From assembly GCA_038145705.1 (NCBI GenBank), contig JAYQQF010000011.1, positions 43,753 through 107,752 of the forward strand: a stretch of 64,000 nucleotides of DNA. The letters are read 5' to 3'. The position numbers and the translations under genes were made by a program. Below the pieces are notes generated by a model. The model did not search any database, was not told where the DNA came from, and saw only the letters and a list, made by a program, of their open reading frames with translations. How positions within the stretch are numbered: position 1 is the stretch's first letter; every line of letters begins with the position of its first letter. Shown one piece after another: positions 9,996 to 58,578 of this stretch. The stretch is from Alphaproteobacteria bacterium (GTDB taxonomy: Bacteria > Pseudomonadota > Alphaproteobacteria > SMXQ01).

Positions 9996-11123
9996 ATGAA
10001 TTTCGCAAAATTCATCGTCGCGATTTCCGCTGTTCTTGGCTTTTTCCCGGGCACCGTCGCCGCGCAGGCACTGGGCGACTGGAATACCGTCCTTGCCAAG
10101 GCAAAGCAGGAGGGAATTGTCGTCGTCCACGGCGCGCCGGGCAAGCGCTATGCCGAGGCCCTGGTCGGCGCCTTCAACAAGAAATATCCCGACATCAAGG
10201 TGCAGTTTTCCGGCGCCTCCAACCGCACCGACGTGCCGAAGCTGTTGCGCGAACGCAAGGCCAACATCTTTGCCTGGGACGTCTGGGTTTCGGGCCCGTC
10301 GACGGCGGTCGGGCGCCTCAAGCCGCTCGGCGTGTTCCAGCCCCTCCAGCCCTTCCTGACCAAGGACACGATGGACGACCGCCACTGGCATGACGGTTTC
10401 GACGCAGGCTGGATGGATATCGAGAAAAAGTTCTTCTATTCCTTCGACGGCACAACCCAGAACCCGATCCAGGTCAATTACGACTTCATCAAGAAGGGCT
10501 CGATCACCTCGATCAAGGACCTGCTGAAGCCGGAATTCGCGGGCAAGATCGTGTGGGACGATCCGCGCTTCAACGGCTCGGGCAACGGCTCGTCGCAAAC
10601 GATATTCGAAAACATGGGCGAGGATTTCCTGCGTCAGCTCTACAAGCAGCAGATCGTCTACACGGCGAACCGCCGCCAGCTTGCCGAGTGGGTCGTACGC
10701 GGGCGTTATCCGATCGGCCTTGGCGTCGGCGAAAACGATCTTACCGTGTTCCAGAATCAGGGCCTTGGCAAGAACGTCGAGCCGCTGCCCGACAGCGCCT
10801 ACAAGGTCCAGCAGCTGAGCTCGGGCTTCGGCGCGCTCGGCATCGTCGACCGCGCGCCGCACCCGAATGCGGCCGCGGTTTATGTCAACTGGCTGTTGAG
10901 CAAGGACGGTCAGGAAGCCTGGGCCGGCGTGCCGCGCAACTCGCGCCGCGTCGACGTGAAGCCCGGCGACCCCAGTCTCGCGCCGCGTCCCGGCATCAAA
11001 TACTTCAACGGCCAGGCGGAGCAGTTCTTCAAGACACGCGCCCGCCTGATGGACATAGCGAAGGAAACCATCACCGCCGAGATGCCGAAGAAAAAGAAGA
11101 AGCGTTCCGAGAAAAAGGAATAG
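9996..11123 (+). CDS. ABC transporter periplasmic substrate-binding protein (family 1), Sec signal peptide, poly-Lys C-terminal tail
   Basis: MNFAKFIVAISAVLGFFPGTVAAQA signal; paralog of 7838 SBP; ends ...EMPKKKKKRSEKKE. Confidence 0.8.
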   Translation: MNFAKFIVAISAVLGFFPGTVAAQALGDWNTVLAKAKQEGIVVVHGAPGKRYAEALVGAFNKKYPDIKVQFSGASNRTDVPKLLRERKANIFAWDVWVSGPSTAVGRLKPLGVFQPLQPFLTKDTMDDRHWHDGFDAGWMDIEKKFFYSFDGTTQNPIQVNYDFIKKGSITSIKDLLKPEFAGKIVWDDPRFNGSGNGSSQTIFENMGEDFLRQLYKQQIVYTANRRQLAEWVVRGRYPIGLGVGENDLTVFQNQGLGKNVEPLPDSAYKVQQLSSGFGALGIVDRAPHPNAAAVYVNWLLSKDGQEAWAGVPRNSRRVDVKPGDPSLAPRPGIKYFNGQAEQFFKTRARLMDIAKETITAEMPKKKKKRSEKKE

Positions 11124-11135
11124 TCACGGCGCAAC

Positions 11136-12227
11136 ATGAGCAACCCGATCATTGAAATAGAGGGCCTCGGCAAATCCTTCGGCAGCGTGCGCGCGCTCGA
11201 CGGCGTCGGCTTTGCCATCGCCAAGGGCGAGGTCTTCACGCTGCTCGGCCCGTCGGGCTGCGGCAAATCGACCACCCTGCGCATCGTCGCCGGACTGGAA
11301 GATGCCAGCGAAGGCGAGATCCGCCTGTCGGGGCGCACTATTTATTCCTCGACACGGCGCATCAACCTGCCGCCGGAAAAGCGCAACATGGGCATGGTGT
11401 TCCAGTCCTACGCCATCTGGCCGCACATGACAGTGGCAGAAAACGTGGGCTACCCGCTGAAACTCCGTCGCCTGCCCGCGGCGGAAATCCGCGACCGCGT
11501 CGCCCGCGCCCTCAAGGCGGTCGAACTGGAGGCACAGGCCGACCGCGACGCACCGAAACTGTCTGGCGGGCAGCAGCAGCGTGTGGCGCTGGCGCGCGCG
11601 CTGGTCTACGAGCCGGAAGTGCTGCTGCTGGACGAACCGCTGTCGAACCTCGACGTCAAGCTGCGCGAGCAGATGCGCTTCGAGCTGAAACTTCTGCAGG
11701 AACGGCTCAACCTCACCATCATCTACGTCACCCACGACCAGTCGGAAGCGCTGAGCCTGTCGGATCGCATCGCACTGATGAACTTCGGCAGGATCGAACA
11801 GGTCGGCACCCCGTTCGAGCTGTATGAAAAGCCGAAGACGGAATTCGTGCGCGACTTCCTCGGCAAGACCATCACCCTGTCGGGCCGCCTTATCGATGTC
11901 GAAGGCGGCCGCGCGCGCATCGCCCTTCCCGGCACCTCGGGACCGCTGTCCTGCCCTGCGGGCGAGCGCACCTTGCCGTCTGCGGGCAGCGATATCGTCG
12001 TCGCCATACGGCCCGAACGGGTCCGCCTCGTTCTCGACGGGCAGGCGCCGACAAACCTCCAGGGGCGCATCGAGACCGTGCTTTACCAGGGCGAGCGGAC
12101 GGAATGCCTGGTGCGCGTCGGCGAGCAGATCGTCACCGTCTACGGGCCGCCCGAGACGGCCGGGCTGCGCCAGCGCGACGTTGCCCTCCTTCTGCCGGAA
12201 GAGGCGATCAGCCTGTGGCCGAGATAG
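11136..12227 (+). CDS. ABC transporter ATP-binding protein (FbpC/PotA-like)
   Basis: Walker A GPSGCGKST, LSGGQQQRVALARAL, Walker B LLLDEP, C-terminal TOBE domain; paralog of 5217..6329. Confidence 0.9.
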   Translation: MSNPIIEIEGLGKSFGSVRALDGVGFAIAKGEVFTLLGPSGCGKSTTLRIVAGLEDASEGEIRLSGRTIYSSTRRINLPPEKRNMGMVFQSYAIWPHMTVAENVGYPLKLRRLPAAEIRDRVARALKAVELEAQADRDAPKLSGGQQQRVALARALVYEPEVLLLDEPLSNLDVKLREQMRFELKLLQERLNLTIIYVTHDQSEALSLSDRIALMNFGRIEQVGTPFELYEKPKTEFVRDFLGKTITLSGRLIDVEGGRARIALPGTSGPLSCPAGERTLPSAGSDIVVAIRPERVRLVLDGQAPTNLQGRIETVLYQGERTECLVRVGEQIVTVYGPPETAGLRQRDVALLLPEEAISLWPR

Positions 12228-13942
12228 CCTTGCCAGAAGCGGGCTCGCGCGCCCGCCGCCTCTTTGAATTCCGCACGCTGCTGTTCGCGGCGGTGCTGCT
12301 GACGACGCTGTTCCTCGTCCTCTATCCCGTCGTCCTGATCGTCTTTTACAGTTTTTCCGCAGCGGAAACCGGCGCCGATTTCGTCTTCGGGCTGGACGCC
12401 TGGCAGCGCGCCCTGCGCGAGCCGGCGATGTTCGGCACCATCATCAATACCGTGAAGCTGCTGGTCGCCATCAACCTGATTTCCTTTCCCGTCGCCATCG
12501 TCATTTCATGGGTGCTGGCTCGCACGGATATCCCGTGGCGCGGCGGGCTGGAGTTCATGTTCTGGATTTCGTTCTTCCTGCCGTCGCTCTCGGTGACGCT
12601 CGGCTGGATCATGTGCCTTGACCCCGAATACGGGCTCTTGAACAAGCTGGTGATGTTCATCTTCCCCTTCATCGAGGAAGCGCCGTTCAACATCTATTCG
12701 TTCTGGGGCATCGTGTGGGCGCATCTCGGCGCCAATGCCATCGCGGTCAAGGTGATGCTGCTGACGCCGACCTTCCGCAACATCGATTCCTCGCTCGAGG
12801 AAGCTTCGCGGGTGGCAGGCGCCGGCCGTCTCGGCACCCTTGCGCGTATCGTCGTGCCCGCCATGGCGCCGGCGCTGATCGCCATCCTGCTGATGGCGAT
12901 GATCCGCGCCATGCAGTCCTTCGAAATCGAGTTGGTTCTGGGACCGGCGTTCCAGTTCTACGTCTATTCGACGAAGGTCTATACCCTGATCGCGCAGGAG
13001 CCGCCGGAATTCGGCTCCGCCTCCGCGCTTGCAACGCTGGGCCTCGCCGCCATCCTGCCGCTGATCTTCGCCCAGCGCTGGATCACCTCGCGCCGCCAGT
13101 ACGCGACGCTGACAGGCAAGCTGCAGACCCAGCCCGTCCGGCTCGGGCCGTGGCGTATACCGGTATTCCTCGCCGTGCTCACGGTCGTGCTGCTGCTGAC
13201 CGTGGTGCCGCTGGTCTTCGTCGGGCTGGCCTCGACCATGAAGCTGTTCGGCTTCTTCAACATTCCCGATCCCTACACCTTCGATCACTGGGTCACGGTG
13301 CTGACCGACGAAACCTTCGGTCAGTCGGTGACGAACACGCTGGGCATGGCGGGCGGGGCCGGAATCCTGTCGGTCGTGCTTTTCTCGCTGGTCGCCTATT
13401 TCACCGTACGCACCACTTTCAAGGCGCGCGCCGTTCTCGACTTCGTGTCCTGGCTGCCCTTCGCTGTCCCCGGCATCCTGTTCGGCGTCGGCCTCTTGTT
13501 CGTGTTCCTGGAATCGCCGCTGTTCCGGCCGCTTTACGGCACCATGTGGCTGCTGATCCTTGCCACCGTCATCAGTTCGATGACGCTCGGCGTCCAGATC
13601 ATCAAGTCGAACATGATGCAGCTCGGCAACGAGCTGGAAGAAGCCTCGCGCGTCGCAGGCGCTACCTGGTGGCATACCTTTACCCGCGTCGTGCTGCCGA
13701 TCATGGTGCCGGTGCTGCTGCTGGTCGGCATCATGAACTTCATTTCGGCGGCGCGCGACATCGCCTCGGTGGCGCTGGTGGCGACGGCGGAAACCAAGAC
13801 CCTCGCCCTTCTGCAGCTCGACTACATGGTGGAGGGCCGCTACGAGGCGGCCTCGGTCGCATCCTTCGTCGTCATCGTCCTGTCGACGGGGATCGCCCTT
13901 CTCGCCCGCGCGCTTGGCTTGCGCATCGGCATTCGCAACTAG
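12215..13942 (+). CDS. ABC transporter permease, fused two-domain (FbpB-like)
   Basis: ORF 12104..13942; GTG at 12215 gives (M)AEIALPEAGSRARRL, mirroring MAEVGITPAAKPGFLRRL of paralog 3496..5229, with the same 13-nt overlap with the ATPase stop. Confidence 0.75.
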   Translation: MAEIALPEAGSRARRLFEFRTLLFAAVLLTTLFLVLYPVVLIVFYSFSAAETGADFVFGLDAWQRALREPAMFGTIINTVKLLVAINLISFPVAIVISWVLARTDIPWRGGLEFMFWISFFLPSLSVTLGWIMCLDPEYGLLNKLVMFIFPFIEEAPFNIYSFWGIVWAHLGANAIAVKVMLLTPTFRNIDSSLEEASRVAGAGRLGTLARIVVPAMAPALIAILLMAMIRAMQSFEIELVLGPAFQFYVYSTKVYTLIAQEPPEFGSASALATLGLAAILPLIFAQRWITSRRQYATLTGKLQTQPVRLGPWRIPVFLAVLTVVLLLTVVPLVFVGLASTMKLFGFFNIPDPYTFDHWVTVLTDETFGQSVTNTLGMAGGAGILSVVLFSLVAYFTVRTTFKARAVLDFVSWLPFAVPGILFGVGLLFVFLESPLFRPLYGTMWLLILATVISSMTLGVQIIKSNMMQLGNELEEASRVAGATWWHTFTRVVLPIMVPVLLLVGIMNFISAARDIASVALVATAETKTLALLQLDYMVEGRYEAASVASFVVIVLSTGIALLARALGLRIGIRN

Positions 13943-14925: not shown

Positions 14926-15013
14926 CGGCGGCGGTACTCCCTGTTGGCGGCGCCAGCATAAGGGCGCGCGCCGCTGCTTGCCAGCGGGAGGGGCGCTGGA
15001 CTAGGCTGCCCCC

Positions 15014-15883: not shown

Positions 15884-15892
15884 CTTCCGGTT

Positions 15893-16669: not shown

Positions 16670-16782
16670 CGGTGTCTCTCCTCCATTTTCCGACCCGCAC
16701 GCTAGCGGCGGGGGCCGGACCTGTCCAGTGCGGCGGTTTGCCGCGAACGAAGGCTGGGATATGCTCATCAGGCAGGGAGAAA

Positions 16783-18375: not shown

Positions 18376-18415
18376 AAAACAAGAAGGGCGTCGAACACCA
18401 GAGGGGGAGCCGCTC

Positions 18416-20517: not shown

Positions 20518-21621
20518 TCAGGACTTCTTGTCCTTGTTCTTCGACTTCTTCTTCACGTCACAGTTGACCTTGCAGTTCTTCTTGTAGCCCTTCATCGCTT
20601 CCTGGGCCTGTGCCACCAGATGCTTCGGCGTCCCCAGGGCTTCGCGGGTCATGGCATCGAGCGCCTCGCCCGTTTCGGGATCGATGTTGGCCTTCTGCTT
20701 CCCGGCATCGGCAAGGAAGCCCGCGTCCTTCGTCATCCTGGCGAAGCCGTCACGCAGGGCCTTCAGGCGGTCCGCGGGCAGGCCTTCCGGCGCGTTGAAT
20801 GCACGGCCGATGAAACCGCCGATCGACAGGAACTTCAGGATCTGCTGCTTTTCCTTGTCCTTGGTCAGTTCATGCATGAGGGGAAGGTTGGGCAGTTCCT
20901 TCTCGCGCTTGAGGCCGACCTGGACGATCGGGATCAGCTTGCCGGTCTTGAAGTCGTCGAAGTAACGGATGCGCCAGCTGGCCCAGGCGCTCGACTGTGC
21001 CTGGATTTCGCCACGGATCATCGCCAGCGTCTGCGCCGCCGAACCGCGGTAGCCGCAGATCATCTGGAAGTTGGCACCGAGCAGCGACATCATCGCGCGC
21101 GGCATGATGTAGCTCTGCGACCCCGCGCCTGTACAGCCGACAATGACCTTGGTTTTCTGTGCATCGGCGAAGGTCTTGACGTTGGCGTCACTGCGTACCG
21201 CAAAGACCGGATTGATCGGCGTAAAGCTGCCGATATAAGGCAGCTTGGCCGCGTCGAACTTGGCCTTCGACGGGAACAGGAGCTGGCTGACGGCCAGCGT
21301 GTCGGCGAACATGCCGATCATCGAGCCGTCCTTCGGCGCCACGTTGGCGAAGTAGTTGGCGGCCACCAGGCTGCCGGCGCCCGCCATGTTCTGAACGATG
21401 ACGTTGGGCTTGCCGGGGATGAACTTGCCGTAATGCCGTGCGGCGAGCTGGGCGTAGGCGGTGTAGGAACCCGCCGGCGGATAGCCGACGAGGATCTTCA
21501 TCGTCTTGCCCTTGTAGAAATCGGCAACCGAATCGGCCTTGGCCGGGGTGCCGGAAGCCGCGAAGGCCAGCGCCGCGACGGCGCCGATGGCGGCAGGTAC
21601 GAGATTTTTCAGACCACGCAT
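20518..21621 (-). CDS. TctC/Bug-family tripartite tricarboxylate transporter substrate-binding protein with Lys-rich, Cys-containing C-terminal tail
   Basis: ORF 20518..21921 trimmed to MRGLKNLVPAAIGAVAALAFAASGTPAKA (signal peptide, RBS GGGAG); TctC signature GKPNVIVQNMAGAGS; unusual tail ...KGYKKNCKVNCDVKKKSKNKDKKS. Confidence 0.75.
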   Translation of the reverse strand: MRGLKNLVPAAIGAVAALAFAASGTPAKADSVADFYKGKTMKILVGYPPAGSYTAYAQLAARHYGKFIPGKPNVIVQNMAGAGSLVAANYFANVAPKDGSMIGMFADTLAVSQLLFPSKAKFDAAKLPYIGSFTPINPVFAVRSDANVKTFADAQKTKVIVGCTGAGSQSYIMPRAMMSLLGANFQMICGYRGSAAQTLAMIRGEIQAQSSAWASWRIRYFDDFKTGKLIPIVQVGLKREKELPNLPLMHELTKDKEKQQILKFLSIGGFIGRAFNAPEGLPADRLKALRDGFARMTKDAGFLADAGKQKANIDPETGEALDAMTREALGTPKHLVAQAQEAMKGYKKNCKVNCDVKKKSKNKDKKS

Positions 21622-21755
21622 GATCAATCTCCCATTCTGTCCTGTTGATGTCCTCGATTCTGGCGCCCCTTGGTGGGGCTGTTGTATCGGGACCGGGTTG
21701 TTTGGGCCGGCAATGCCGGTACGCGTGCTGGTTACTCCTCCTCTGCTAGTGAATG

Positions 21756-23462
21756 TTACTTCGGATCGCCCTCCACCTCGCGACAGGGGGTCTCCGGAAT
21801 GATTCCCGAAGCGCGGCGCTGGGCCGTGCGACGGCCATTCTCGGCATAGTCGCCCTTGACCGCACGTTCGGCAGCGCGGTCCCAGGCCTCGAACCAGTCG
21901 CCGAGATCGTAGCCGTGCCACGGCGACTGGGCCTTGAGCTGCGGCAGGCCGAGCTTCTCCCAGAGCCGCTTCGCGCCTTCCATGTATTCCTTCTTCGGCA
22001 GCGCGAGCGGCGGCATGTCGCCCTTGAGGGTGGCGTCGATCAGCAGCGTGCCGTCCTCGTTGACGTTGCCCGATTTCGGCCCGTGGCCGCGCGGGCGATG
22101 GTGCAGGACCTCGATGTCGGTCAGCACGTTGGCGCGATAGGCCATCGCCCAGAACACCGCATCGCCGTCATCGGGATCGATGTCGTCGTTGACCGCGATC
22201 ACGTACTTGCCGCAGTCGGCGCGTAGTACGGCGGCGCCGTAAAGCGCGCGCCAGACCTCGGTGCGCGAGGTGGCTCGGTCCATGACCAGGAAGATCACCT
22301 TGCGGATATTGGTGAGCGGCTCGTGCAGCGCCACGCGCTTGACGCCGCGCAGGCCAAGCTGGTCGCGCAGGTGGGCCAGGAACATCGGCTCGTAGGCGAC
22401 GCGCTTGATGACGCTCGATTCGCTCGGCGTGACCTGCGAGATGATCGAGGCCAGCACCGGCTTCTTCTTCATGGTGATCGCCGTCACCTCGAAGATCATG
22501 TTGAAATCCTCGAGCGCGATATGGCCGTGGGATTCGCCGAAGGGGGCTTCCGGTTCAAGATAGGTGGTATCTACCTTGCCCTCGATCACCAGTTCGGCTT
22601 CCGCCGGCACCATCAGGTCGTTGGTCTTGCACTTGACCATGTTGATGGGCGCACCCGCGATGCCGCCGGCCACGTCGGCCTCGTCGCGGTGGGTGCCGAG
22701 CTTCTGCGGGCCGAGATAGGCAACAATGGGCGGCGCGCCGACGACGACGGCACACGGCATCGTCTTGGCGCCCTTCTTCTGGTACTTGAGCCAGTGCAGG
22801 TAGCCGCCGGCACCGCCTTCGCGGCTCGCCATGCGCACGGCGAGGCGGTTCGTCGCCTTGAGCCCGGCGCGATAAGTGCCCATGTTCTGCACGCCGGTTT
22901 CGGGATCGACGGTGACGACATTGGTCGCCGTGAAATAGGGTGCCGCGTCGAAACCAGGTGTGGAGATCGGCACCGGCAGGGCGTCGAGGCCCTTGTTGTC
23001 GCCGAGCAGGTCCTTGCCGGTCCACACCACTTCCTGGCAGGGCGCCGTCTTGACCACCTTGGGCGGGATCGGCTTCGCCATGCCGCGTTCCCAGCGCGCA
23101 CCGATCTCTTCAAGGGGCGCGTTCATGCCGATGGCATAGATATCCTGGTTGGCGGCCAGCGCGCCGACCACCACGGGCATGTCGAACTTGCGCCCACGCG
23201 CGTCGGTGACGTTGGTAAACAGGAAGGCCTTGCGCTCGCCCTCCTTGAGCCCGCCGCGGAACTGCCAGCGCACCAGCGGGTGCAACTCGGTGTCCTTGTT
23301 GACGGGCTCATCGATGGTGACAAGAAGCCCGGCCGCCTCGAGTGCCGCGAGGTGCTCCTGCAAATCGCGGTAGCCGCGCTTGGGCAGGGCGGGAATGCGG
23401 CCCTTGCCCGCCTTTGCGGACTTCGTCTTCTTGGTCTTGTCGAGCGCGGCTTTCTTCGCCAT
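21756..23462 (-). CDS. UbiD-family (prFMN-dependent) decarboxylase with Lys-rich N-terminal extension
   Basis: ORF 21756..23588 trimmed to MAKKAALDKTKKTKSAKAGKGRIPALPKRGYRDLQEHLAALEAAG...; UbiD core about 530 aa; no UbiX-like gene in window. Confidence 0.75.
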   Translation of the reverse strand: MAKKAALDKTKKTKSAKAGKGRIPALPKRGYRDLQEHLAALEAAGLLVTIDEPVNKDTELHPLVRWQFRGGLKEGERKAFLFTNVTDARGRKFDMPVVVGALAANQDIYAIGMNAPLEEIGARWERGMAKPIPPKVVKTAPCQEVVWTGKDLLGDNKGLDALPVPISTPGFDAAPYFTATNVVTVDPETGVQNMGTYRAGLKATNRLAVRMASREGGAGGYLHWLKYQKKGAKTMPCAVVVGAPPIVAYLGPQKLGTHRDEADVAGGIAGAPINMVKCKTNDLMVPAEAELVIEGKVDTTYLEPEAPFGESHGHIALEDFNMIFEVTAITMKKKPVLASIISQVTPSESSVIKRVAYEPMFLAHLRDQLGLRGVKRVALHEPLTNIRKVIFLVMDRATSRTEVWRALYGAAVLRADCGKYVIAVNDDIDPDDGDAVFWAMAYRANVLTDIEVLHHRPRGHGPKSGNVNEDGTLLIDATLKGDMPPLALPKKEYMEGAKRLWEKLGLPQLKAQSPWHGYDLGDWFEAWDRAAERAVKGDYAENGRRTAQRRASGIIPETPCREVEGDPK

Positions 23463-23521
23463 TTCGCTGGTGCTCCGGAACAAAAATGGGGATGGCCCCG
23501 GCAAGCCGGGGCTATCACATC

Positions 23522-25288: not shown

Positions 25289-25404
25289 GATGTCTCCGTT
25301 CGGATGGGGTGTTGTATATGACGATCATAATGTATTACTAAAACCAGTCCACCTTGTGGACCCCCACAGTCACGATCACCGCAAATTTTTCAGATAGGCC
25401 GAAG

Positions 25405-28739: not shown

Positions 28740-28760
28740 CACGCATCAGGGGGAAAGATC

Positions 28761-30151: not shown

Positions 30152-31159
30152 CTACTTGATCGCCGCGGCCGCCTTCGGAATCAGGTTCTTGGGCGTGGCG
30201 TAGAGCTTTTCGACCATCTTGGCGACATCCTCGCCGCGCAGGGGATCGATGATGCCGCGCTTGGTCTTGATCGATTCGTCGATCAGGGCCTTGTCGTGGA
30301 TCGTCTTCCAGAACGACTCGCGCAGCACCGCAACCTTGTCCATCGGCACCTTGCTGGACACGATGAAGGGCCGGAAGATCAGGTTGTGGGTGGTCACCAG
30401 ATCGATGATCTGCTTCTGCTCGTCGTTGGCGAACTCGCTGATGTGCGGGATGCCCTTGAGCTCCGGCACGTTGACCTTGGAGATGCGGATGAAGATGTTG
30501 GTCTTTTTCTCCGCAAGCCAGTGCGGCGGCACGCTTTCCCACGTGCCGCAGTCGCCGTCCAGCTCGCCGCGCTCGACCGCGAGGCGCTGCTCGGTGGCGC
30601 CCGGATAGCCGACGATCTGCTTGATCTTGGCGCCGAACACGTTCTTCAGGATCGCTGCATCGAGGTAGGTCGAAGCGGAATTGCCCGTGTGGCCGGTGGA
30701 GAACTGGCTCTTCTTCAGGAGATCCTGGAAGGTCTTCACTCCCGTCGTGTGCCAGGCATGGCAGACGCGGGCATCGGCGGTGGCGCTGCCGATGAAGTGG
30801 ACGTCCTTGGAAAAGTCCGCCTTGACCTTGTTGGGCGTCAGCAGCGAGCCCAGCACCAGGCCGGGATTGAACAGCACGATGTAGGTGCCGTCGGTCGGCG
30901 CAGCCTTGAGGGACTGCACCGCCTTGAACGAACCGGCGCCCGGCATGTTGCTGACGACGATGCTGGGCTTGCCCGGGATATGGGCGCCCAGGTGACGGCC
31001 GACCATGCGGCCGAAGGCATCGAAGCCCGCACCCGCCGACGAACCGACGACGATGCGCATGTTCTTGCCGCCCGAGAAGCTCTCGGCGGCGAAGGACGAG
31101 GTCGCGGCAACCACGCCCGCGACCAACGCCAGACCCGGGAAAACGCCAGCAATCTTCAT
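30152..31159 (-). CDS. TctC/Bug-family substrate-binding protein, paralog 2
   Basis: ORF 30152..31240 trimmed to MKIAGVFPGLALVAGVVAATSSFAAES (signal); FSGGKNMRIVVGSSAGAGFDAFGR; GKPSIVVSNMPGAGS. Confidence 0.8.
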   Translation of the reverse strand: MKIAGVFPGLALVAGVVAATSSFAAESFSGGKNMRIVVGSSAGAGFDAFGRMVGRHLGAHIPGKPSIVVSNMPGAGSFKAVQSLKAAPTDGTYIVLFNPGLVLGSLLTPNKVKADFSKDVHFIGSATADARVCHAWHTTGVKTFQDLLKKSQFSTGHTGNSASTYLDAAILKNVFGAKIKQIVGYPGATEQRLAVERGELDGDCGTWESVPPHWLAEKKTNIFIRISKVNVPELKGIPHISEFANDEQKQIIDLVTTHNLIFRPFIVSSKVPMDKVAVLRESFWKTIHDKALIDESIKTKRGIIDPLRGEDVAKMVEKLYATPKNLIPKAAAAIK

Positions 31160-31178: not shown

Positions 31179-32186
31179 TTATTCGACCGCCTTGGCCGAA
31201 ACCGCGACCAGCTTGGCCGGGGTCTTGTAAAGTTCTTCAATCATCTTCTCGACGTCCTCGCCCTTCATCGGCGAGATGACCGTGCGGCCGGACCGCTTGG
31301 CGTCATCGAGGAACGGCTTGCCGTTGACCATGTCCCACATCGCCTTGCGCAGGGTGGCGAGCTTGCCCGCCGGGGTCTGCTTGGAGACGATGATCGGACG
31401 GAAGATGTCGCTGTGCGCCGTCAGCAGGTTGACGATCTGGCGCTTTTCGCCGGTCACGAGGTTGCCGACAAAGGGAACGTTGCCGATTTCCGGCATGGTG
31501 ACGCTGGAAACGCGGGCGAAGATGTTGATCTTCTTGTCCTTGATCCAGTTCTCCGGAATGCTGTCGTAGGAACCGCAGTCGCCGTCCAGCTCGCCCTTTT
31601 CGACGGCAAGACGCTGCTCGGCGGAACCGGGGTAACCGACGATCTGCTTCAGGTTGGCGCCGAACACGTTCTTCAGCACGGCGGCGTCGATGTAGTTGCT
31701 GGCGTTCTTGCCGGTGTGGCCGGTGGCGAACTGCTTGCGCTTGAGCAGGTCATCGAGCGTCTTGACGCCGACCGTGTGCCACGAATAGCAGACGCGCGCA
31801 TCGGCGGTCAGGCTGGCGACGAAGCTCACCTCGGTGAACTTCATTTTGACCTTCTTCGGCACGACCAGCGAATTCAGGACCTGGCCCGGGTTGAACATCA
31901 CCATGTAGGTGCCGTCGGCAGGCTGCGCCTTCAGCGACTGCACCGACTTCATCGAGCCCGCGCCCGGCAGGTTGCTGACGACGATATTGGGCTTGCCCGG
32001 CAGGTACTGGCCGAGGTTGCGCCCGGCGAGACGCCCGAACGCATCGAACCCGCCGCCGGCGGACGATCCCACCACGATGCGGACGTTCTTGCCGCCTGAA
32101 AAATCCTGGGCCGCGGCAACGCCCGCGAAGCCCGTCAGGGTGGAAAGGACGACTGCAGCAGTCAGGACACGATGATTGGTCTTCAT
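31179..32186 (-). CDS. TctC/Bug-family substrate-binding protein, paralog 3
   Basis: MKTNHRVLTAAVVLSTLTGFAGVAAAQD signal; FSGGKNVRIVVGSSAGGGFDAFGR; tandem with paralog 2 (19-nt spacer). Confidence 0.85.
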   Translation of the reverse strand: MKTNHRVLTAAVVLSTLTGFAGVAAAQDFSGGKNVRIVVGSSAGGGFDAFGRLAGRNLGQYLPGKPNIVVSNLPGAGSMKSVQSLKAQPADGTYMVMFNPGQVLNSLVVPKKVKMKFTEVSFVASLTADARVCYSWHTVGVKTLDDLLKRKQFATGHTGKNASNYIDAAVLKNVFGANLKQIVGYPGSAEQRLAVEKGELDGDCGSYDSIPENWIKDKKINIFARVSSVTMPEIGNVPFVGNLVTGEKRQIVNLLTAHSDIFRPIIVSKQTPAGKLATLRKAMWDMVNGKPFLDDAKRSGRTVISPMKGEDVEKMIEELYKTPAKLVAVSAKAVE

Positions 32187-51648: not shown

Positions 51649-52815
51649 TCATTGCGCCTTTTTCTTCTTCTTCGGTCCCGGGCCGCCCGCGGCCAGCCAG
51701 TACTTGTTCCATTCCTCGATCACGCGCTTCGACAGCTCCTCGGCATTGTCGTCCAGCACGGCGATCTTCTTGCCGGCGACGGCTTCGGGATAGAACAGGA
51801 ATTCCTTGCGCAGCAGCTCTTTGTGCGACGGGGGCGAATAGTTGCCCCAGTACTGGGCGATCTGGCCTTCCTTGGACAGGAACCAGTTGACGAAGACCTT
51901 GGCGGCGTTGGTATGCGGGCTGTTCTTGACGATCGCCATGTCGGAAATCGTGTAGGGCACGGGTTCCGGACAATGGAAGGCGACGGGGGCGCCCTTCTGC
52001 GCTTCCGGCCCGACGCGCATCATGGCCGACGGCACCGCCGCGCTGGCCTCGCCGAGCGAAACAAGGTTGATGCCGGCGTTCAGGCCTTCCTTGCGCAACT
52101 GCGGCGACAGTTTGCCGAACAGGTCGCGCGTGTAGGCCTTGCCCCAGTCGTCACCCTTCGCCGTCCAGACGTTCAGCAGCCACAGGTTGGCGCGGTTGAG
52201 CAGCGCCAGGTTCTTGTCGGCGAATTTCGGATTCGTCAACAGGTCGTCCCAGGTTTTGGGCAGGTCCGCCTTGCTGATCTTCTTGGTGTTGTAGGACATG
52301 CACCAGTAGCGCGAGCGCACGGCGACGGCGATGTGGTCCTTCTGGCGCACCTCGGCCGGGAAGTTGGCATAGCCGGGCAGGTCATCGAGCGGAATCAGGG
52401 CGCCCGCCTCGCGGAATTTGTAGACGCTGCCCGACATGTCCATGATCACGTCGGCGATCACGCGGCCTTGGGTGAAGGCGGCGAGCGGGCGCACCCAGCG
52501 GCGCTCGGCCGTGTTGACTTCCTCGTGGCGGAAATTGATGCCGGGATACCGTTCCTTCAGGACACCGGCGATTTTGGCCCAGGCCTTCGGCCGGGTAGAG
52601 GTGTAGATCACCACCTCCTTTTCCTTCCTGGCGGCATCGAGCCAGGCCTGCGGCACGGCCAGTTCCTTGTCGAGGCCCGACAGGATCGAGGCGTCGAGCT
52701 TGAGCGCGGCCAGCATCTTCTGCGTCGCCTGCGGCAGTTCCGCCCCCTGGGCAGGCACGGCGAAAGCGGCGGCAGCAAGCACGCAGGCGCGAAGGATCGC
52801 GGATTTTCCGGTCAT
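51649..52815 (-). CDS. orphan ABC transporter periplasmic substrate-binding protein (family 1) with poly-Lys C-terminus
   Basis: MTGKSAILRACVLAAAAFAVPAQGAE signal; homologous to SBPs at 7838/9996; ends GGPGPKKKKKAQ; no permease/ATPase adjacent. Confidence 0.8.
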   Translation of the reverse strand: MTGKSAILRACVLAAAAFAVPAQGAELPQATQKMLAALKLDASILSGLDKELAVPQAWLDAARKEKEVVIYTSTRPKAWAKIAGVLKERYPGINFRHEEVNTAERRWVRPLAAFTQGRVIADVIMDMSGSVYKFREAGALIPLDDLPGYANFPAEVRQKDHIAVAVRSRYWCMSYNTKKISKADLPKTWDDLLTNPKFADKNLALLNRANLWLLNVWTAKGDDWGKAYTRDLFGKLSPQLRKEGLNAGINLVSLGEASAAVPSAMMRVGPEAQKGAPVAFHCPEPVPYTISDMAIVKNSPHTNAAKVFVNWFLSKEGQIAQYWGNYSPPSHKELLRKEFLFYPEAVAGKKIAVLDDNAEELSKRVIEEWNKYWLAAGGPGPKKKKKAQ

Positions 52816-52896
52816 TTCTCTCTCCCCAGTATTATTCCGGCGCTTGCGCCGTTTTGTGCATTTTCGAATATCGCAAAGGGATGCGAAAGCAAAAAT

Positions 52897-54969: not shown

Positions 54970-55054
54970 TCCCGCAATGTTGATGGACGCGGGTAGGCGC
55001 CGCGCCTAATCTTCCCGTTACCGCCGGCAACAAGGCGGATCGGAGGAGACGTTC

Positions 55055-56074
55055 ATGCTGCTCGGCGCGCTTTTCGCCGTATTGTCCTCGGCTACCTTTG
55101 CCCTCAACGGCGTCTCGGTCCGGCGCGGCGTGCTCACCGGCTCCGTCGCCCAGGCGATGGCTATTACCGTGCCGATGGGCGTGCCCATCTTCTTCGTTGC
55201 AGCGCTTGCCACCGGCGGCCTCGGCGCGCTGTTCGATTTTTCCGGCCTGGCGCTTTTTTATCTCGCGCTGGCCGGCGTGTTCCACTTCGTCTGGGGGCGC
55301 TACTGCAACTACCGCGCCACCAAGGCCATCGGCGGCAACGCGGTGACGCCGCTGCAGCAGCTCGACTTCCCGCTCAAGCTGGCGCTTGCCATGATCTTCC
55401 TTGGCGAAAAGCTGACCGTGCTCAGCCTCGTCGGCATCGCCCTCATCTTCCTTGGCGGCGCCGTCGCCATCAAGCCGCGCGGCAAGCGCGCCGCCCAGAA
55501 GGAAGAAAAGAAGGAAGAAAAGAAGGAAGCCCCGAAAGAGGGATCGGCCCCGGTTTTCGTCCCCCAGTATGTCGAGGGCTATACCTTCGCCCTGCTGTCG
55601 ATCACCGGCTATGGGGTGAGCCCCTTGTTCATTCGCCTTGCGCTTGAGGACGCGGGCATCGCCGCAAGCCTCGCCGGCGGGCTTGTGTCCTACATGGCGG
55701 CGACCGTCGTCATCATCGCCATGGCCTGCCTGCCCGGACGCTTCGCCCATATCCGTTCGATCAACACGGTATCGGCGCGCTGGTTCATGGCGTCCTCGCT
55801 GTTCGTCGGCGTGTCGCAGATCTTCCGCTACATGGCGCTGGCGCTGGCGCCGGTCATCGTCGTCGCCACCGTGATGCGCGGGGCAGGCCTGTTCAAGCTG
55901 CTGTTCAACTGGTTCGTCAACCGCCAGTACGAAATCTTCGAGGCGCGCCTGCTGGTCGGCATTTTCATCTCGATTGCGGGCGGCGTCGCCATGACCATAA
56001 GCCCGGCCTTCGTCGCGGAAATCCTGCCGCTTCCGGCATCGGCCCTTGGTACGCTCGAGTGGCGCTGGCCCTAG
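55055..56074 (+). CDS. DMT-superfamily (EamA-like) membrane transporter with KE-rich inter-domain linker
   Basis: 339 aa, two 5-TM EamA-like halves separated by KRAAQKEEKKEEKKEAPKEGSAP. Confidence 0.7.
   Translation: MLLGALFAVLSSATFALNGVSVRRGVLTGSVAQAMAITVPMGVPIFFVAALATGGLGALFDFSGLALFYLALAGVFHFVWGRYCNYRATKAIGGNAVTPLQQLDFPLKLALAMIFLGEKLTVLSLVGIALIFLGGAVAIKPRGKRAAQKEEKKEEKKEAPKEGSAPVFVPQYVEGYTFALLSITGYGVSPLFIRLALEDAGIAASLAGGLVSYMAATVVIIAMACLPGRFAHIRSINTVSARWFMASSLFVGVSQIFRYMALALAPVIVVATVMRGAGLFKLLFNWFVNRQYEIFEARLLVGIFISIAGGVAMTISPAFVAEILPLPASALGTLEWRWP
55498..55529 (+). repeat. tandem 12-nt repeat (gaaggaagaaaa) x2.7 within DMT transporter gene
   Basis: gaaggaagaaaagaaggaagaaaagaaggaag read directly; encodes EEKKEEKKE. 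Confidence 0.8.
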
Positions 56075-56083
56075 GCCACGCAG

Positions 56084-57055: not shown

Positions 57056-57066
57056 GGCGCAATTCC

Positions 57067-58068
57067 TCAGGCGAAGACGCCGGAAAGCGCGCTTTCCGGC
57101 TTCGGGTATGGACTGTTGTCGGCAAACTCGCGCGCGGCCTTGATCCTGGCGGCCACTCGCGCGTCGGCCGCCTGCAGGGCTGCGGCATCGGCCGCCTTGT
57201 CGGCGAGCAGCCTGCGCGCGAAAGCCAGCACCGGATCGTATTTCGCGATCCATTCGGCATGCGTCCCCGCAATGCGCGCGGGCTCCCACGCCATGGCGAC
57301 ATCGGTCACGCCGGTGACGAAATCGGGTTTGGCCTGGTGCGAGCCGGGCCAGCGCTCGAGCCGGGATTCGAGGAATACCGGCTCGCCCTTGCGCACAGAC
57401 TTGAGCGCTTCCATGGTTGCGGCATAGACCGCATCGGCATCGTGGCCGTCGACGGTGACGACCGGGATGCCAAGCGCACGCGGCACGTCGCCCAGCTGCT
57501 GGGCGGCAAGGCGCGAGGTTTCGTGGGCGCCTTCCTTGCTGTTGTTTTCGCAGACGAACAGCACCGGCAGTTCGTAGCGCGAGGCGAAGTTCATCGCCTC
57601 GTAGCTGATGCCTTCGTCCAGTACGCCGTCGCCGAAGAAGGCGACGGAAACGTTGTCGGTGCCGAGTTCGCGCGTCGCCCAGCCGCCGCCGATGGCGAGC
57701 CCGATGCTGCCGCCGACCATGGCCGAAGTGGACTGGATGCCCGCCGCGCGGTCGCACAGGTGCCACGTGCCGCCGCGCCCGCGGTTGAGCCCGCCCTCGC
57801 GCCCCATGATCTCGGCCAGCGCCTTGCCCGGATCGGCGCCGCGCCCGATGACGTGGCCGTGGTTGCGGTGGGTGGTGTGCACGAGGTCGCCCTGCTTGAG
57901 CGCGGCCAGCACCGCCGCCCCGGTCGCCTCGTGACCTATATATAGGTGGTTGCGGCCGATATCCTTGTGAACGGCGGCGGCATGGATGATTTCTTCCTCG
58001 AAGCGGCGCATCAGCAGCATGCGCTCGAACAGCGCAAGGCGCGCGGCATCGGACAGCCTTTCGGCCAT
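57067..58068 (-). CDS. TPP-dependent 2-oxoacid dehydrogenase E1 component alpha subunit
   Basis: 333 aa; GDG...NN TPP-binding motif (FFGDGVLDEG...CENN). Confidence 0.8.
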   Translation of the reverse strand: MAERLSDAARLALFERMLLMRRFEEEIIHAAAVHKDIGRNHLYIGHEATGAAVLAALKQGDLVHTTHRNHGHVIGRGADPGKALAEIMGREGGLNRGRGGTWHLCDRAAGIQSTSAMVGGSIGLAIGGGWATRELGTDNVSVAFFGDGVLDEGISYEAMNFASRYELPVLFVCENNSKEGAHETSRLAAQQLGDVPRALGIPVVTVDGHDADAVYAATMEALKSVRKGEPVFLESRLERWPGSHQAKPDFVTGVTDVAMAWEPARIAGTHAEWIAKYDPVLAFARRLLADKAADAAALQAADARVAARIKAAREFADNSPYPKPESALSGVFA

Positions 58069-58254
58069 GATCGTTCCCCCCGGTTCGTTTTTCTGCGCCC
58101 GGCCTCGGCCCGGCGCCTGTTATGCCGATATCGTGGCCCGGCCCGCCATTCCGGGCAAGCCTGCATTCGCGCCAATTTCACGCCAAAGGCGGTTGCCGGG
58201 CGCGCAGCGGGGAGTAAGATTTTCACAATCGAACACCAGCAGAAGGAACAGGCC

Positions 58255-58578
58255 ATGATCATCAGGACCGTCATCGGGCTCGCCGCCGCCGCCATCGTTT
58301 CTGCCGTCGTTGCGACGGGCGCCTTCGCCCAGGGCGCACCGGACAGCCGCGGCCTCGACCGCGCCATCGAACGCGCCAATCCGAAGGCCCAGGATCAGCT
58401 GCGCGAAAACAGAGAGCGCAAGAAGTCGCGCGAGGCGGAGAAGGCGCGCAAGCGCTCCGAACGCGACGCCCGCAAGGCCCGCGAGAAATCCGAAGAGATG
58501 AAGGAAAAAGGCAAGCGCAAGGCCAAGGGAAAAGGCAAGGGCAAGAAGCGCGAGCGCGACGAAAAGAAGTCGGACTGA
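58255..58578 (+). CDS. small secreted, highly charged (K/R/E-rich) hypothetical protein
   Basis: MIIRTVIGLAAAAIVSAVVATGAFAQGA signal then ...ERKKSREAEKARKRSERDARKAREKSEEMKEKGKRKAKGKGKGKKRERDEKKSD; RBS AAGGAA upstream. Confidence 0.6.
   Translation: MIIRTVIGLAAAAIVSAVVATGAFAQGAPDSRGLDRAIERANPKAQDQLRENRERKKSREAEKARKRSERDARKAREKSEEMKEKGKRKAKGKGKGKKRERDEKKSD

What the first reader, a model, noticed from the sequence alone, without database searches (positions are those of the whole stretch)
9996..58578. Recurrent poly-lysine / KE-rich low-complexity tails on periplasmic binding proteins and other exported proteins
Read directly: the SBP at 9996 ends EMPKKKKKRSEKKE; the SBP at 51649 ends GPGPKKKKKAQ; TctC at 20518 ends KGYKKNCKVNCDVKKKSKNKDKKS (plus a CxxxC). 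UbiD starts MAKKAALDKTKKTKSAKAGKG; the DMT transporter has a KEEKKEEKKE linker encoded by a 12-nt tandem repeat; a small secreted protein (58255) is almost entirely K/R/E. In a 66% GC genome these AAR-rich stretches are compositionally costly, so they are probably selected. Possible roles are anchoring to LPS/membrane, polyanion binding, or lineage-specific export/retention signals. I know of no such tails on characterised TctC or family-1 SBPs.
Basis: seen in the sequence. Interest (0 to 1): 0.5.

Follow-up and report, generated by a model that had tools for sequence, protein, structure and literature searches.

The report
Poly-lysine tails on supercharged periplasmic binding proteins
In this uncultured alphaproteobacterium, several exported nutrient-binding proteins are unusually positively charged and end in a floppy run of lysines that relatives have kept through long divergence, so the tails are real and selected, though what they do is still only inferred.

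Summary
Three Sec-exported solute-binding proteins (SBPs) end in poly-lysine tails: SBP1 at 9996-11123, TctC at 20518-21621 and SBP2 at 51649-52815.

The tails are coding and conserved by composition, not by sequence.
- SBP1 orthologs keep K/R tails down to about 62% identity.
- TctC orthologs keep a fixed module, C-x3-C followed by K6-12, down to about 45% identity and in genomes from 39% to 67% GC.
- SBP2-type proteins gained tails more than once.
- Tail codons mix AAG and AAA whatever the genome GC, and A-runs are 5 nt in 15 of 18 tails.
- AlphaFold2 predicts the TctC tail to be disordered.

New here: the tails sit on top of a larger shift. All six SBPs in the window have pI 9.5-9.8, net charge +12 to +24 and K/(K+R) 0.68. 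Cytoplasmic proteins have pI about 5.4-6.7. Tail-bearing orthologs have bodies of +16 to +21, tail-less ones +2 to +3. None of the tail-bearing homologs has a Tat-like signal.

The UbiD N-terminus and the L21 tail are histone-like A/K/P extensions on cytoplasmic proteins. The DMT "linker" is a 12-nt slippage polymorphism.

The most likely role is an electrostatic tether or charge appendage that holds SBPs on anionic envelope surfaces (inferred, about 0.4). [quoted passage not shown]

The parts
9996..11123 (+). SBP1: family-1 solute-binding protein (375 aa) with a Sec-type signal peptide. pI 9.6, net +14.
   Evidence: Pfam SBP_bac_1/8/11. PDB relatives are Fe3+-type SBPs. Charge. Orthologs.
11085..11120 (+). 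SBP1 polybasic tail, PKKKKKRSEKKE. Codons are mixed AAG/AAA.
   Evidence: Orthologs down to about 62% identity keep a K/R tail of different sequence, such as KKRKRRKRRGKKKKN. Arg codons CGC/CGG occur in the L091 tail.
20518..21621 (-). TctC/Bug-family solute-binding protein (367 aa) with a Sec-type signal peptide. pI 9.8, net +24.
   Evidence: Pfam TctC, 48 bits against a cut-off of 27. PDB TctC/TBP relatives at E about 1e-8. AF2 mean pLDDT 86.9.
20521..20592 (-). TctC C-terminal module KGYKKNC-x3-C followed by a Lys-rich tail (KGYKKNCKVNCDVKKKSKNKDKKS). Predicted disordered.
   Evidence: C350 and C354 are invariant in 34 orthologs. CxxxC and polyK co-occur: 58 with both, 6 with CxxxC only, 4 with polyK only, 49 with neither (p = 3e-21). 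pLDDT is below 50 over most of 348-367 (segments 348-351 and 355-367); the last helix ends at residue 342.
51649..52815 (-). SBP2: family-1 solute-binding protein (388 aa) with a Sec-type signal peptide. pI 9.5, net +15.
   Evidence: Pfam. Charge.
51652..51684 (-). SBP2 tail, GPGPKKKKKAQ.
   Evidence: K5-K7 in orthologs of 82% identity or more. Independent K/R tails in P0283 and P0325 and in the second SBP of L091.
7838..8959 (+). Family-1 SBP with a Tat-like signal (SRRDFALG) and no tail, but still pI 9.7, net +15, K 9.4%.
30152..31159 (-). Distant TctC-like SBP with no tail. pI 9.6, net +12.
   Evidence: Its paralog hits PDB TctC structures.
31179..32186 (-). Distant TctC-like SBP with no tail. 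pI 9.7, net +15.
58255..58578 (+). Small exported protein (107 aa): signal peptide, a conserved GLDxAIERANPKA motif, then a K/R/E-rich region with GKGKGK repeats. Net +16.
   Evidence: Only 3 representative clusters were found among 1.84 billion proteins, and they share this architecture.
23379..23462 (-). UbiD-family decarboxylase N-terminal basic extension (about 28 aa) on a cytoplasmic protein. A different class of feature.
   Evidence: Pfam UbiD_N starts at residue 38. The extension is hypervariable but always basic among cluster members of 90% identity or more, and absent from distant orthologs.
55497..55529 (+). Perfect 12-nt tandem repeat (x2.8) encoding KEEKKEEKKE in the central loop of the EamA/DMT transporter. 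A slippage polymorphism, not a tail.
   Evidence: Relatives at 97-98% identity lack one KEEK unit.
61373..61549 (+). Ribosomal protein L21 C-terminal A/K/P-rich extension (about 59 aa), histone-H1-like and cytoplasmic.
   Evidence: The Pfam L21p domain covers residues 1-101 only. Degenerate 15/27-nt repeats. Conserved in cluster members.

Best explanation
The window comes from an uncultured alphaproteobacterium in which Sec-exported periplasmic solute-binding proteins of the TctC/Bug family and SBP family 1 are systematically lysine-rich polycations. Some carry an added, intrinsically disordered C-terminal poly-lysine appendage. In one TctC clade the appendage is preceded by an invariant Cys-x3-Cys, which probably forms a small disulfide loop.

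Shown:
- The tails are translated.
- They are conserved by composition over deep divergence.
- They were gained repeatedly in different SBP families.
- They occur only with Sec-type signal peptides.
- They go together with a very large positive charge on the folded body.

Inferred: the tail is a cheap, fold-neutral way to add 6-10 positive charges on a flexible leash. The SBP would then adhere electrostatically to anionic envelope surfaces: the periplasmic face of the inner membrane, peptidoglycan or periplasmic glucans, or acidic parts of the cognate membrane transporter. This would keep the ligand-loaded SBP concentrated next to its transporter. It would be a non-covalent counterpart of the lipid or transmembrane anchors of SBPs in Gram-positive bacteria and archaea.

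Lys rather than Arg is used because Arg is the residue that limits Sec transport, whereas Lys can cross deprotonated (Allen et al. 2022, PMC9110029).
For: Real and conserved:
- In SBP1 homologs, 36 of the 120 listed carry a K/R tail of differing sequence and 72 are tail-less.
- In TctC homologs the C-x2-3-C + polyK module reaches down to about 45% identity, with invariant C350 and C354.
- The module is present in MAGs from 39% to 67% GC.
- SBP2 tails occur in close orthologs and arose independently elsewhere.

Protein-level selection:
- K and R interchange through CGC/CGG codons.
- Tail AAG:AAA is 75:27 against 331:51 in the body in high-GC loci (p = 0.002), and 13:12 against 23:79 in low-GC loci (p = 0.006).
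- The longest A-run is 5 nt in 15 of 18 tails.

Charge context:
- Bodies of tail-bearing orthologs are +16 to +21, against +2 to +3 for tail-less ones (MWU p about 1e-17).
- All six window SBPs have pI 9.5-9.8, against about 5.4-6.7 for cytoplasmic enzymes, and K/(K+R) 0.68 against 0.35.
- The same holds in related loci.

Other points:
- The tail is disordered in the AF2 model.
- 0 of 97 tail-bearing homologs have a Tat-like signal, against 27 of 250 tail-less ones (p = 2e-4).
- The Lys preference of Sec substrates is documented in PMC9110029.
Against: - There is no direct evidence for binding to membrane, peptidoglycan or transporter.
- Marine relatives (TMED23, Black Sea) keep the tail although high ionic strength would screen electrostatic binding.
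- Three of the six window SBPs lack a tail yet are equally basic, so a tail is not required.
- The CxxxC module is not explained by a pure charge model.
- Sticking to fixed polyanions could slow SBP diffusion rather than help it.
- The correlation between tail and body charge is phylogenetically non-independent.
- Runs of lysine have been used experimentally to block Sec transport (cited in PMC9110029), so export of these tails is itself unexplained.
Confidence: 0.4

Rival explanations
1. Bulk charge tuning without specific binding. The SBPs, which are very abundant, are made polycationic to change the electrostatics of the periplasm by neutralising or inverting the normally negative Donnan potential, and/or to steer anionic substrates (aromatic and tricarboxylic acids) electrostatically. 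The tail is simply extra charge.
For: - The whole bodies are supercharged, not only the tails.
- The supercharged SBPs sit in gene clusters for aromatic-acid catabolism (LigB, Rieske oxygenases, UbiD decarboxylase, Amidohydro_2, aldolase II).
- TctC-family proteins bind carboxylates (PDB terephthalate-binding protein).
- In L092 a haem-type SBP (Peripla_BP_2) and a TonB receptor of the same genome are not Lys-rich, so the shift is specific to a class of SBPs.
Against: - SBP abundance in these organisms is unknown.
- In seawater a few tens of mM fixed charge is negligible, yet marine relatives keep the tail.
- It does not explain why the charge is concentrated in a terminal run, nor the invariant CxxxC.
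Confidence: 0.22
2. A specific sorting, processing or attachment signal. The tail, with CxxxC in TctC, would be recognised by dedicated machinery. Examples are covalent linkage of a Lys epsilon-amine to peptidoglycan by an L,D-transpeptidase (as for the C-terminal Lys of E. coli Lpp), disulfide tethering to a partner, or export to the cell surface.
For: - The C-x3-C spacing is invariant and tightly coupled to polyK in TctC orthologs.
- In the metagenome pattern scan the module occurs only at TctC C-termini.
- Many TctC orthologs end exactly in ...KKKK.
Against: - There is no hydrophobic helix or signature motif of the kind found in known C-terminal sorting signals.
- No NCBIfam model hits the tail.
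- Tails of SBP1 and SBP2 share no motif with TctC and vary freely in sequence and in the last residues.
- The window proteins end in E, S and Q, not K.
- No conserved candidate enzyme gene lies next to the tail-bearing genes.
- Immobilising an SBP on the sacculus would hinder delivery to the transporter.
Confidence: 0.12
3. Neutral by-product. AAG/AAA-rich 3' ends expand by replication slippage and are tolerated because a disordered C-terminus is harmless. The tails would have no function.
For: - Tail length varies among close relatives: K5, K6 and K7 in SBP2, and K6-12 in TctC.
- Sequence turnover is rapid.
- A clear slippage polymorphism exists in the DMT loop of the same window.
- Low-complexity repeats encode the L21 tail and the tail of the small protein.
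Against: - The tails are retained across about 45-100% identity and across 39-67% GC.
- Tail codons are deliberately mixed, so they are not perfect repeats or long A-runs.
- In a 65% GC genome, mutation pressure opposes AAR codons.
- The tails are restricted to Sec-type SBPs, coupled to CxxxC and correlated with body charge.
Confidence: 0.1
4. An export-related role. A terminal Lys run acts in Sec translocation itself, for example as a final 'proton-ratchet' that prevents back-sliding, or as a brake that delays release until the domain has folded or its disulfides have formed.
For: - The tails are found only with Sec-type signal peptides.
- K strongly outnumbers R in the tails (TctC 498:11).
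- The proton-ratchet model and the Lys/Arg bias of Sec substrates are described in PMC9110029.
Against: - The same paper notes that consecutive lysines may overwhelm the machinery and that poly-Lys inserts block transport.
- SBP1 tails contain many Arg residues (251 K: 93 R).
- Tail-less paralogs in the same cell are presumably exported normally.
Confidence: 0.08
5. Artefact or RNA-level feature. The tails would be read-through of frameshifted stops, or the purine-rich 3' ends would serve as a Shine-Dalgarno or translational-coupling element for the downstream gene.
For: The last codons of SBP1 (GAG AAA AAG GAA TAG) lie 13-25 nt upstream of the ATG of the next gene (11136) and contain AAGGA.
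Against: - Orthologs from many independent assemblies have the same gene lengths and tails.
- The TctC and SBP2 tails lie 76 and 43 nt from the next gene, and the TctC tail is followed by a terminator-like hairpin.
- Arg codons CGC/CGG replace AAR in some tails.
Confidence: 0.02

Closest known systems
Lipid- or transmembrane-anchored solute-binding proteins of Gram-positive bacteria and archaea, and lipoprotein SBPs of some Gram-negatives (established knowledge)
   Same: The same protein class (ABC/TTT substrate-binding proteins) carries an extra terminal element outside the Venus-flytrap fold that would keep the SBP at the membrane near its transporter.
   Different: Those anchors are N-terminal lipobox Cys acylation or a hydrophobic helix. 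Here the element is C-terminal, hydrophilic and purely polycationic, with no lipobox, and tethering is only inferred.
Polybasic membrane-targeting regions of eukaryotic proteins (K-Ras4B KKKKKKSKTKCVIM, MARCKS) (own knowledge; polybasic motifs appear in papers listed)
   Same: A disordered run of 6-10 Lys at the C-terminus lies next to Cys residues. The known function of those regions is electrostatic binding to acidic phospholipids.
   Different: Those act on the cytosolic leaflet and cooperate with Cys prenylation. Here the protein is periplasmic, the Cys pair precedes the Lys run, no lipidation system is known, and the Cys pair is more likely a disulfide.
Lys-over-Arg bias of Sec substrates and the 'proton ratchet' (Allen et al. 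2022, eLife, PMC9110029)
   Same: The window's SBPs show the reported bias strongly (K/(K+R) 0.68 against 0.35 for cytoplasmic proteins). All tail-bearing homologs have Sec-type signals.
   Different: That work explains the choice of Lys over Arg. It does not explain a net charge of +15 to +35 or terminal K8-12 runs. [quoted passage not shown]
Characterised TctC/Bug proteins (BugD 2f5x, BugE-like 2dvz, 7ndr, terephthalate-binding protein 8hka)
   Same: The same Pfam family (PF03401) and the same predicted two-domain fold.
   Different: The solved proteins are about 305-314 residues and align only up to query residue 315; no solved chain aligns to the region holding the C-x3-C + polyK module. 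Identity to the window protein is low (E about 1e-8).
A/K/P-rich (PAKKA-type, histone-H1-like) tails of bacterial nucleic-acid-binding proteins, such as Mycobacterium smegmatis Ku (PMC3553676)
   Same: This matches the L21 C-tail and resembles the UbiD N-extension: low-complexity, basic, fast-evolving, and on cytoplasmic proteins.
   Different: It does not match the SBP tails, which are nearly pure Lys, short, periplasmic, and not mixed with Ala and Pro.

Membership tests
TctC/Bug family substrate-binding protein (PF03401) | Significant match to the family profile above the curated threshold | tested here: met
   48.0 bits against a cut-off of 27, E = 1.5e-12, for 20518-21621. PDB TctC and terephthalate-binding proteins at E about 1e-8.
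TctC/Bug family substrate-binding protein (PF03401) | N-terminal signal peptide and a two-lobed alpha/beta periplasmic-binding fold | tested here: met
   The signal is MRGLKNLVPAAIGAVAALAFAASGTPAKA. The AF2 model has mean pLDDT 86.9 and alternating beta-alpha elements over residues 27-342. No fold search was run.
TctC/Bug family substrate-binding protein (PF03401) | Genetic association with TctA/TctB membrane subunits | tested here: inconclusive
   There is no TctA/B next to the gene in the window or in L002. A roughly 690-aa fused TctA/B gene is adjacent in L008, L011, L012, L014, L018, L020 and L021.
Bacterial extracellular solute-binding protein family 1 (PF01547/PF13416) | Profile match above threshold and a signal peptide, adjacent to ABC ATPase and permease genes | tested here: met
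   SBP1 scores 43.6-57.2 bits and SBP2 48.5-68.8 bits on the models above their cut-offs. SBP1 is followed by an ABC ATPase (11136-12227) and a permease (12215-13942) (Pfam calls in the syntenic L091).
C-terminal protein-sorting signals (PEP-CTERM, GlyGly-CTERM, LPXTG and similar types) | Signature motif followed by a hydrophobic transmembrane helix and then a short basic cluster | tested here: not met
   No hydrophobic stretch lies between the last helix (residues 333-342) and the Lys run. No NCBIfam model hits either the full proteins in that region or a consensus tail peptide.
Polybasic plus lipid membrane anchors (K-Ras4B type) | Run of six or more Lys/Arg in a disordered terminus | tested here: met
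Polybasic plus lipid membrane anchors (K-Ras4B type) | Adjacent lipidated cysteine and demonstrated binding to acidic phospholipids | not testable with these tools
   The Cys-x3-Cys is present, but its modification state and any lipid binding need experiments.
Lpp-type covalent attachment to peptidoglycan through a C-terminal lysine | Lys as the last residue, used by an L,D-transpeptidase | tested here: not met
   The window proteins end in E, S and Q. Only some orthologs end in K. Linkage through an internal Lys cannot be excluded computationally.
Sec substrates with Lys-over-Arg bias (Allen et al. 2022) | Sec-type signal peptide and a higher K/(K+R) than cytoplasmic proteins of the same genome | tested here: met
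   K/(K+R) is 0.62-0.73 for the SBPs against a mean of 0.35 for cytoplasmic proteins (MWU p = 1.7e-4). 0 of 97 tail-bearing homologs have a Tat-like motif.

The most novel reading that the evidence does not exclude
Terminal poly-lysine, with a Cys-x3-Cys loop in one TctC clade, is a previously unrecognised non-lipid retention or anchoring device for periplasmic binding proteins in widespread uncultured Alphaproteobacteria. These proteins would also be natural Sec substrates carrying K8-12 runs that in vitro work treats as translocation blocks. That would imply either an adapted Sec machinery or a real role for lysine deprotonation during export.
Probability: 0.3. Interest if true: 0.72.

Novelty: new variant of a known kind. 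Interest (0 to 1): 0.55.

Why it matters
- SBPs are the high-affinity front end of nutrient uptake and among the most abundant envelope proteins of oligotrophic bacteria. A conserved polycationic design (body +15 to +35, plus a poly-Lys leash) in soil, freshwater and marine Alphaproteobacteria suggests a physical strategy not seen in model organisms, whether membrane or polyanion tethering or electrostatic capture of anionic substrates.
- These proteins are natural test substrates for a current question in Sec biology: how positive charges, and consecutive lysines in particular, cross SecYEG.
- The C-x3-C + polyK module is a simple, scorable marker for a clade of TctC proteins linked to UbiD-type decarboxylase and Mo-hydroxylase gene clusters.

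Tried and rejected
- Read-through or frameshift artefact: rejected. Orthologs and public gene calls keep the same lengths and tails, and a terminator-like hairpin follows the TctC stop.
- RNA-level or Shine-Dalgarno function: rejected for TctC and SBP2 on distance to the next gene, and for SBP1-type tails because they contain CGC/CGG Arg codons.
- Known C-terminal sorting signal: no NCBIfam hit and no hydrophobic helix.
- Portable module on other protein families: a metagenome scan for the DNA pattern CxxNC-K6 gave 67 stretches. Only 6 lay in long ORFs, all at TctC C-termini; the rest were AT-rich noise.
- Acidic docking patch on the cognate membrane protein: the fused TctA/B proteins of polyK loci share HFDIQADYGDL, and the two loci with weak tails differ there. 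With only 8 sequences and 3-4 acidic residues this is inconclusive.
- Compartment-wide adaptation such as acidophily: weakened. A haem SBP and a TonB receptor in L092 are not Lys-rich or basic, and the relatives come from neutral or alkaline marine habitats.
- Unbiased proteome-wide enrichment: not achievable. Only 64 kb plus about 400 kb of query-centred loci were available. My signal-peptide heuristic was crude, and my gene caller failed on L005.
- Literature: seven full-text searches found no report of poly-Lys tails on periplasmic SBPs. The library lacks most subscription journals.
- Small protein 58255-58578: an exhaustive phmmer search found only 3 representative clusters, so it gave no functional lead.

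Full report
**1. What is in the window**

The window is 64 kb at about 65% GC. I called genes with a codon-usage model trained on the window itself. For the proteins of interest, the lengths match public gene calls of identical sequences: SBP1 375 aa, TctC 367 aa, UbiD 568 aa, SBP2 388 aa, DMT 339 aa. The public records name only uncultured "Alphaproteobacteria bacterium" MAGs.

Three corrections apply:
- The TctC gene starts at 21621 (MRGLKNL...), not at the upstream GTG of the 467-aa ORF.
- The DMT stretch is an internal loop, not a tail.

**2. Are the tails real and conserved?**

*SBP1.* Among the 120 best homologs, 36 carry a K/R-rich tail by the criterion. These reach down to about 62% identity, and the tail sequences are unalignable: PKKKKKRSEKKE, PPESKGRKKKRKKKSEE, LKKRKRRKRRGKKKKN. 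More distant homologs end directly after the last helix (...AIDGK) or in a short Gly/Ala stretch.

*TctC.* The result is sharper. Orthologs from 96% down to about 45% identity end in (K)GYKKNC-x3-C followed by K6-12 and one or two small residues. There are C-x2-C variants such as NCPGCGKKK. C350 and C354 are invariant in a 34-sequence alignment. Among the listed homologs the Cys pair and the Lys run co-occur: 58 have both, 6 have only the Cys pair, 4 have only the Lys run, and 49 have neither (Fisher p = 3e-21).

*SBP2.* Close orthologs (82% identity or more) keep K5-K7. Similar K/R tails appear independently at 63% (GGPKRKSRKKKKKAKKQ) and 50% identity (GGPKKKKRGKKKKK). Another appears in the second SBP of locus L091 (GKGRKRGKKRKGKRKKNQ). 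Most other homologs have short endings or none.

They show persistence of composition with free turnover of sequence.

**3. Protein-level or nucleic-acid-level?**

A scan of one genome per GTDB species found TctC orthologs with the module only in uncultured MAGs. The labels were Alphaproteobacteria, Rhodospirillales, Rhodospirillaceae TMED23 and "Hyphomicrobiaceae". The sources were soil, lakes, wastewater, the Black Sea and the Mediterranean, and genome GC ran from 39% to 67%.

Tail codons converge on an interspersed AAG/AAA mix whatever the genome composition:
- In high-GC loci the tails are 75 AAG : 27 AAA, against 331:51 in the gene bodies (p = 0.002).
- In low-GC loci the tails are 13:12, against 23:79 in the bodies (p = 0.006).
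- The longest A-run is 5 nt in 15 of 18 tails.

This avoids both slippery poly-A and perfect (AAG)n, as expected if a stable, translated Lys run is wanted. In SBP1-type tails, Lys is replaced by Arg through CGC/CGG codons, so basic charge is conserved rather than purine content.

The TctC and SBP2 tails end 76 and 43 nt before the next gene. The TctC stop is followed by a terminator-like hairpin. Only the last few codons of SBP1 could double as a ribosome-binding region for the downstream ABC ATPase gene.

**4. Structure and family**

The TctC protein matches PF03401 above threshold and matches solved TctC/Bug/terephthalate-binding proteins at E about 1e-8. The solved chains are 305-314 residues and align only up to query residue 315, so none aligns to the region that holds the tail.

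AlphaFold2 with the ortholog alignment gives a confident two-lobed model (mean pLDDT 86.9) through the last helix at residues 333-342. The last 20 or so residues are mostly below pLDDT 50 (segments 348-351 and 355-367), so the module is a disordered appendage.

No NCBIfam model, including the curated C-terminal sorting-signal models, hits the tails, and there is no hydrophobic helix. SBP1 and SBP2 are family-1 SBPs distantly related to Fe3+/phosphonate-type binders.

**5.

The tails go with an extreme positive charge on the whole protein. After removing the approximate signal peptide and the last 15 residues:
- Tail-bearing SBP1 homologs average +15.8 net charge, against +2.1 for tail-less ones.
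- TctC homologs average +20.9, against +3.3 (Mann-Whitney p about 1e-17 for each).
- SBP2 homologs average +17.5, against +10.0 (p = 0.016, only 6 tail-bearing).

In the window, all six SBPs have pI 9.5-9.8, net +12 to +24, 9-10% Lys and 3-6% Arg. That includes the three without tails (7838-8959, 30152-31159, 31179-32186). Cytoplasmic enzymes mostly have pI 5.4-6.7, 1-5% Lys and 7-11% Arg. K/(K+R) is 0.68 against 0.35 (p = 1.7e-4).

Related loci show the same split, with SBPs at +14 to +36. It does not apply to the whole compartment: in L092 a haem-type SBP (Peripla_BP_2: 2% Lys, net +2) and a TonB-dependent receptor (pI 4.9) are ordinary.

The supercharged SBPs lie among genes for aromatic-acid catabolism: LigB, Rieske oxygenases, Amidohydro_2, class II aldolase, and a UbiD-like decarboxylase next to a ThDP enzyme and a Mo-hydroxylase.

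**6. Link to export**

All three window tails follow Sec-type signal peptides. The one Tat-type SBP in the window has no tail. Across the three families, 0 of 97 tail-bearing homologs have a twin-arginine-like motif, against 27 of 250 tail-less ones (p = 1.7e-4). This comparison is not phylogenetically independent.

Allen et al. (eLife 2022, PMC9110029) showed that Arg limits the rate of Sec transport, that Lys can pass deprotonated, and that Sec substrates of E. coli, S. meliloti and B. subtilis prefer Lys over Arg. That explains why these cations are Lys. [quoted passage not shown] It also says that consecutive lysines, used experimentally to block transport, might overwhelm the machinery. 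Natural K8-12 runs on Sec substrates are therefore unexpected.

**7.

- *UbiD N-extension.* The first 28 or so residues are hypervariable yet always basic among proteins that are otherwise 90% identical or more (MAKKAALDKTKK..., MAVKAKSRSVTK..., MARKGVDTKTTQ...). The extension is absent from distant orthologs.
- *L21 tail.* It is an A/K/P-rich, histone-H1-like extension encoded by degenerate 15/27-nt repeats.
- *Other cytoplasmic cases.* A VOC-family protein and a ThDP enzyme in related loci carry similar extensions. Together with UbiD and L21 these are cytoplasmic proteins. They resemble the PAKKA-type tails of nucleic-acid-binding proteins (PMC3553676) more than the pure-Lys SBP tails.
- *DMT KEEKKEEKKE.* It is charge-neutral and comes from a perfect 12-nt repeat with one more unit than in relatives at 97-98% identity. 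This is a recent slippage event.
- *Small protein 58255-58578.* It is a real exported, lineage-restricted protein. Three representative clusters among 1.84 billion proteins share a signal peptide, a GLDxAIERANPKA motif and a K/R/E/G-rich remainder.

**8. Mechanism**

Shown: the tails are translated, disordered, polycationic, conserved, restricted to Sec-type signals, and coupled to supercharged bodies.

Inferred, my best explanation (about 0.4): the tail is an inexpensive, fold-neutral charge appendage on a flexible leash. It makes the SBP adhere to anionic envelope surfaces or to its transporter. In function it would parallel the lipid or transmembrane anchors of SBPs elsewhere.

The closest rival (about 0.22) is bulk electrostatic tuning of the periplasm, or steering of anionic substrates, without specific binding. 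The gene context and the SBP-class specificity support this rival.

The remaining rivals are less likely:
- A specific attachment or sorting signal (about 0.12) is kept alive mainly by the unexplained invariant C-x3-C.
- Neutral slippage (about 0.10) is disfavoured by the evidence in sections 2, 3 and 6.
- A direct role in Sec transport is rated about 0.08.
- Artefact or RNA-level explanations (about 0.02) are essentially excluded.

Against every electrostatic model, marine relatives keep the tail although seawater would screen the charges.

**9. Novelty and verdict**

Seven full-text searches found no description of poly-Lys tails or of systematic supercharging of periplasmic SBPs. The library is incomplete, so this is absence of evidence only. 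I classify the finding as a new variant of known kinds: anchored SBPs, polybasic tails, and the Lys bias of Sec substrates.

Interest is 0.55.

Noticed in passing
window 20518-29234; also L002, L004, L012, L014, L018, L021: A conserved gene set surrounds the TctC gene: a UbiD-like decarboxylase, a ThDP enzyme (588 aa), a Mo-hydroxylase large subunit (804 aa), an NMT1-like protein and a cupin. In more distant loci a roughly 690-aa fused TctA/TctB membrane protein and a second UbiD paralog are also present. It looks like an uptake-plus-decarboxylation pathway for an aromatic or heteroaromatic carboxylate. The window and L002 lack the TctA/B gene next to TctC.
   Followed up: partly
L008 12339-14426, L011 11148-13226, L012 16027-18126, L021 7637-9691, compared with L017 5784-8204 and L020 7558-9621: Fused TctA/B proteins encoded next to polyK-tailed TctC genes share a short acidic motif, HFDIQADYGDL, between the TctA part and the TctB-like part. 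The two loci whose TctC has a weak tail or none differ at this site. This could be a docking site, but there are too few sequences to judge.
   Followed up: partly
window 23379-23462 (-); cluster members P0126-P0139: The first 28 or so residues of the UbiD-like enzyme are hypervariable among proteins that are otherwise 90% identical or more, yet they stay basic and of similar length. This is a fast-evolving disordered N-extension on a cytoplasmic enzyme.
   Followed up: partly
window 55497-55529 (+): A perfect 12-nt x2.8 tandem repeat lies in the central loop of the EamA/DMT transporter. Relatives at 97-98% identity have one unit (KEEK) fewer, so this is a recent in-frame slippage polymorphism.
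   Followed up: yes
window 61373-61549 (+): Ribosomal protein L21 carries a C-terminal A/K/P-rich extension of about 59 aa, encoded by degenerate 15/27-nt repeats. Public gene calls for this gene differ at the start (160 vs 173 vs 213 aa).
   Followed up: partly
window 58255-58578 (+): This small exported basic protein has a conserved GLDxAIERANPKA motif and GKGKGK repeats. Only three representative clusters were found among 1.84 billion proteins. Its function is unknown.
   Followed up: partly
SBP2 homologs P0287-P0299 and others; L002 6883-8106; L092 2961-4313: A subfamily of SBP2-like and TctA-adjacent SBPs carries an extra C-terminal domain of about 70 aa with conserved cysteines (...CKVNYAGDGGEAKSIECK) in place of a Lys tail. 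These proteins are also strongly basic (net +21 to +23).
   Followed up: no
L002 4504-4968 and L004 5015-5476; L004 3159-4955: A VOC/glyoxalase-family protein has a basic K/R/P-rich C-tail in two relatives. The L004 ortholog of the window's ThDP enzyme has a basic N-extension that the window copy (23522-25288) lacks. Basic terminal extensions on cytoplasmic proteins therefore seem to come and go quickly in this clade.
   Followed up: no
window 7838-19714: A dense block of aromatic-catabolism-type genes surrounds SBP1: a LigB-type extradiol dioxygenase (8982-9890), Rieske oxygenase alpha subunits (2-670, 18416-19714), a sulfatase-like protein (16783-18375) and class II aldolase-like genes. The block is syntenic with L002 and L091.
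   Followed up: partly
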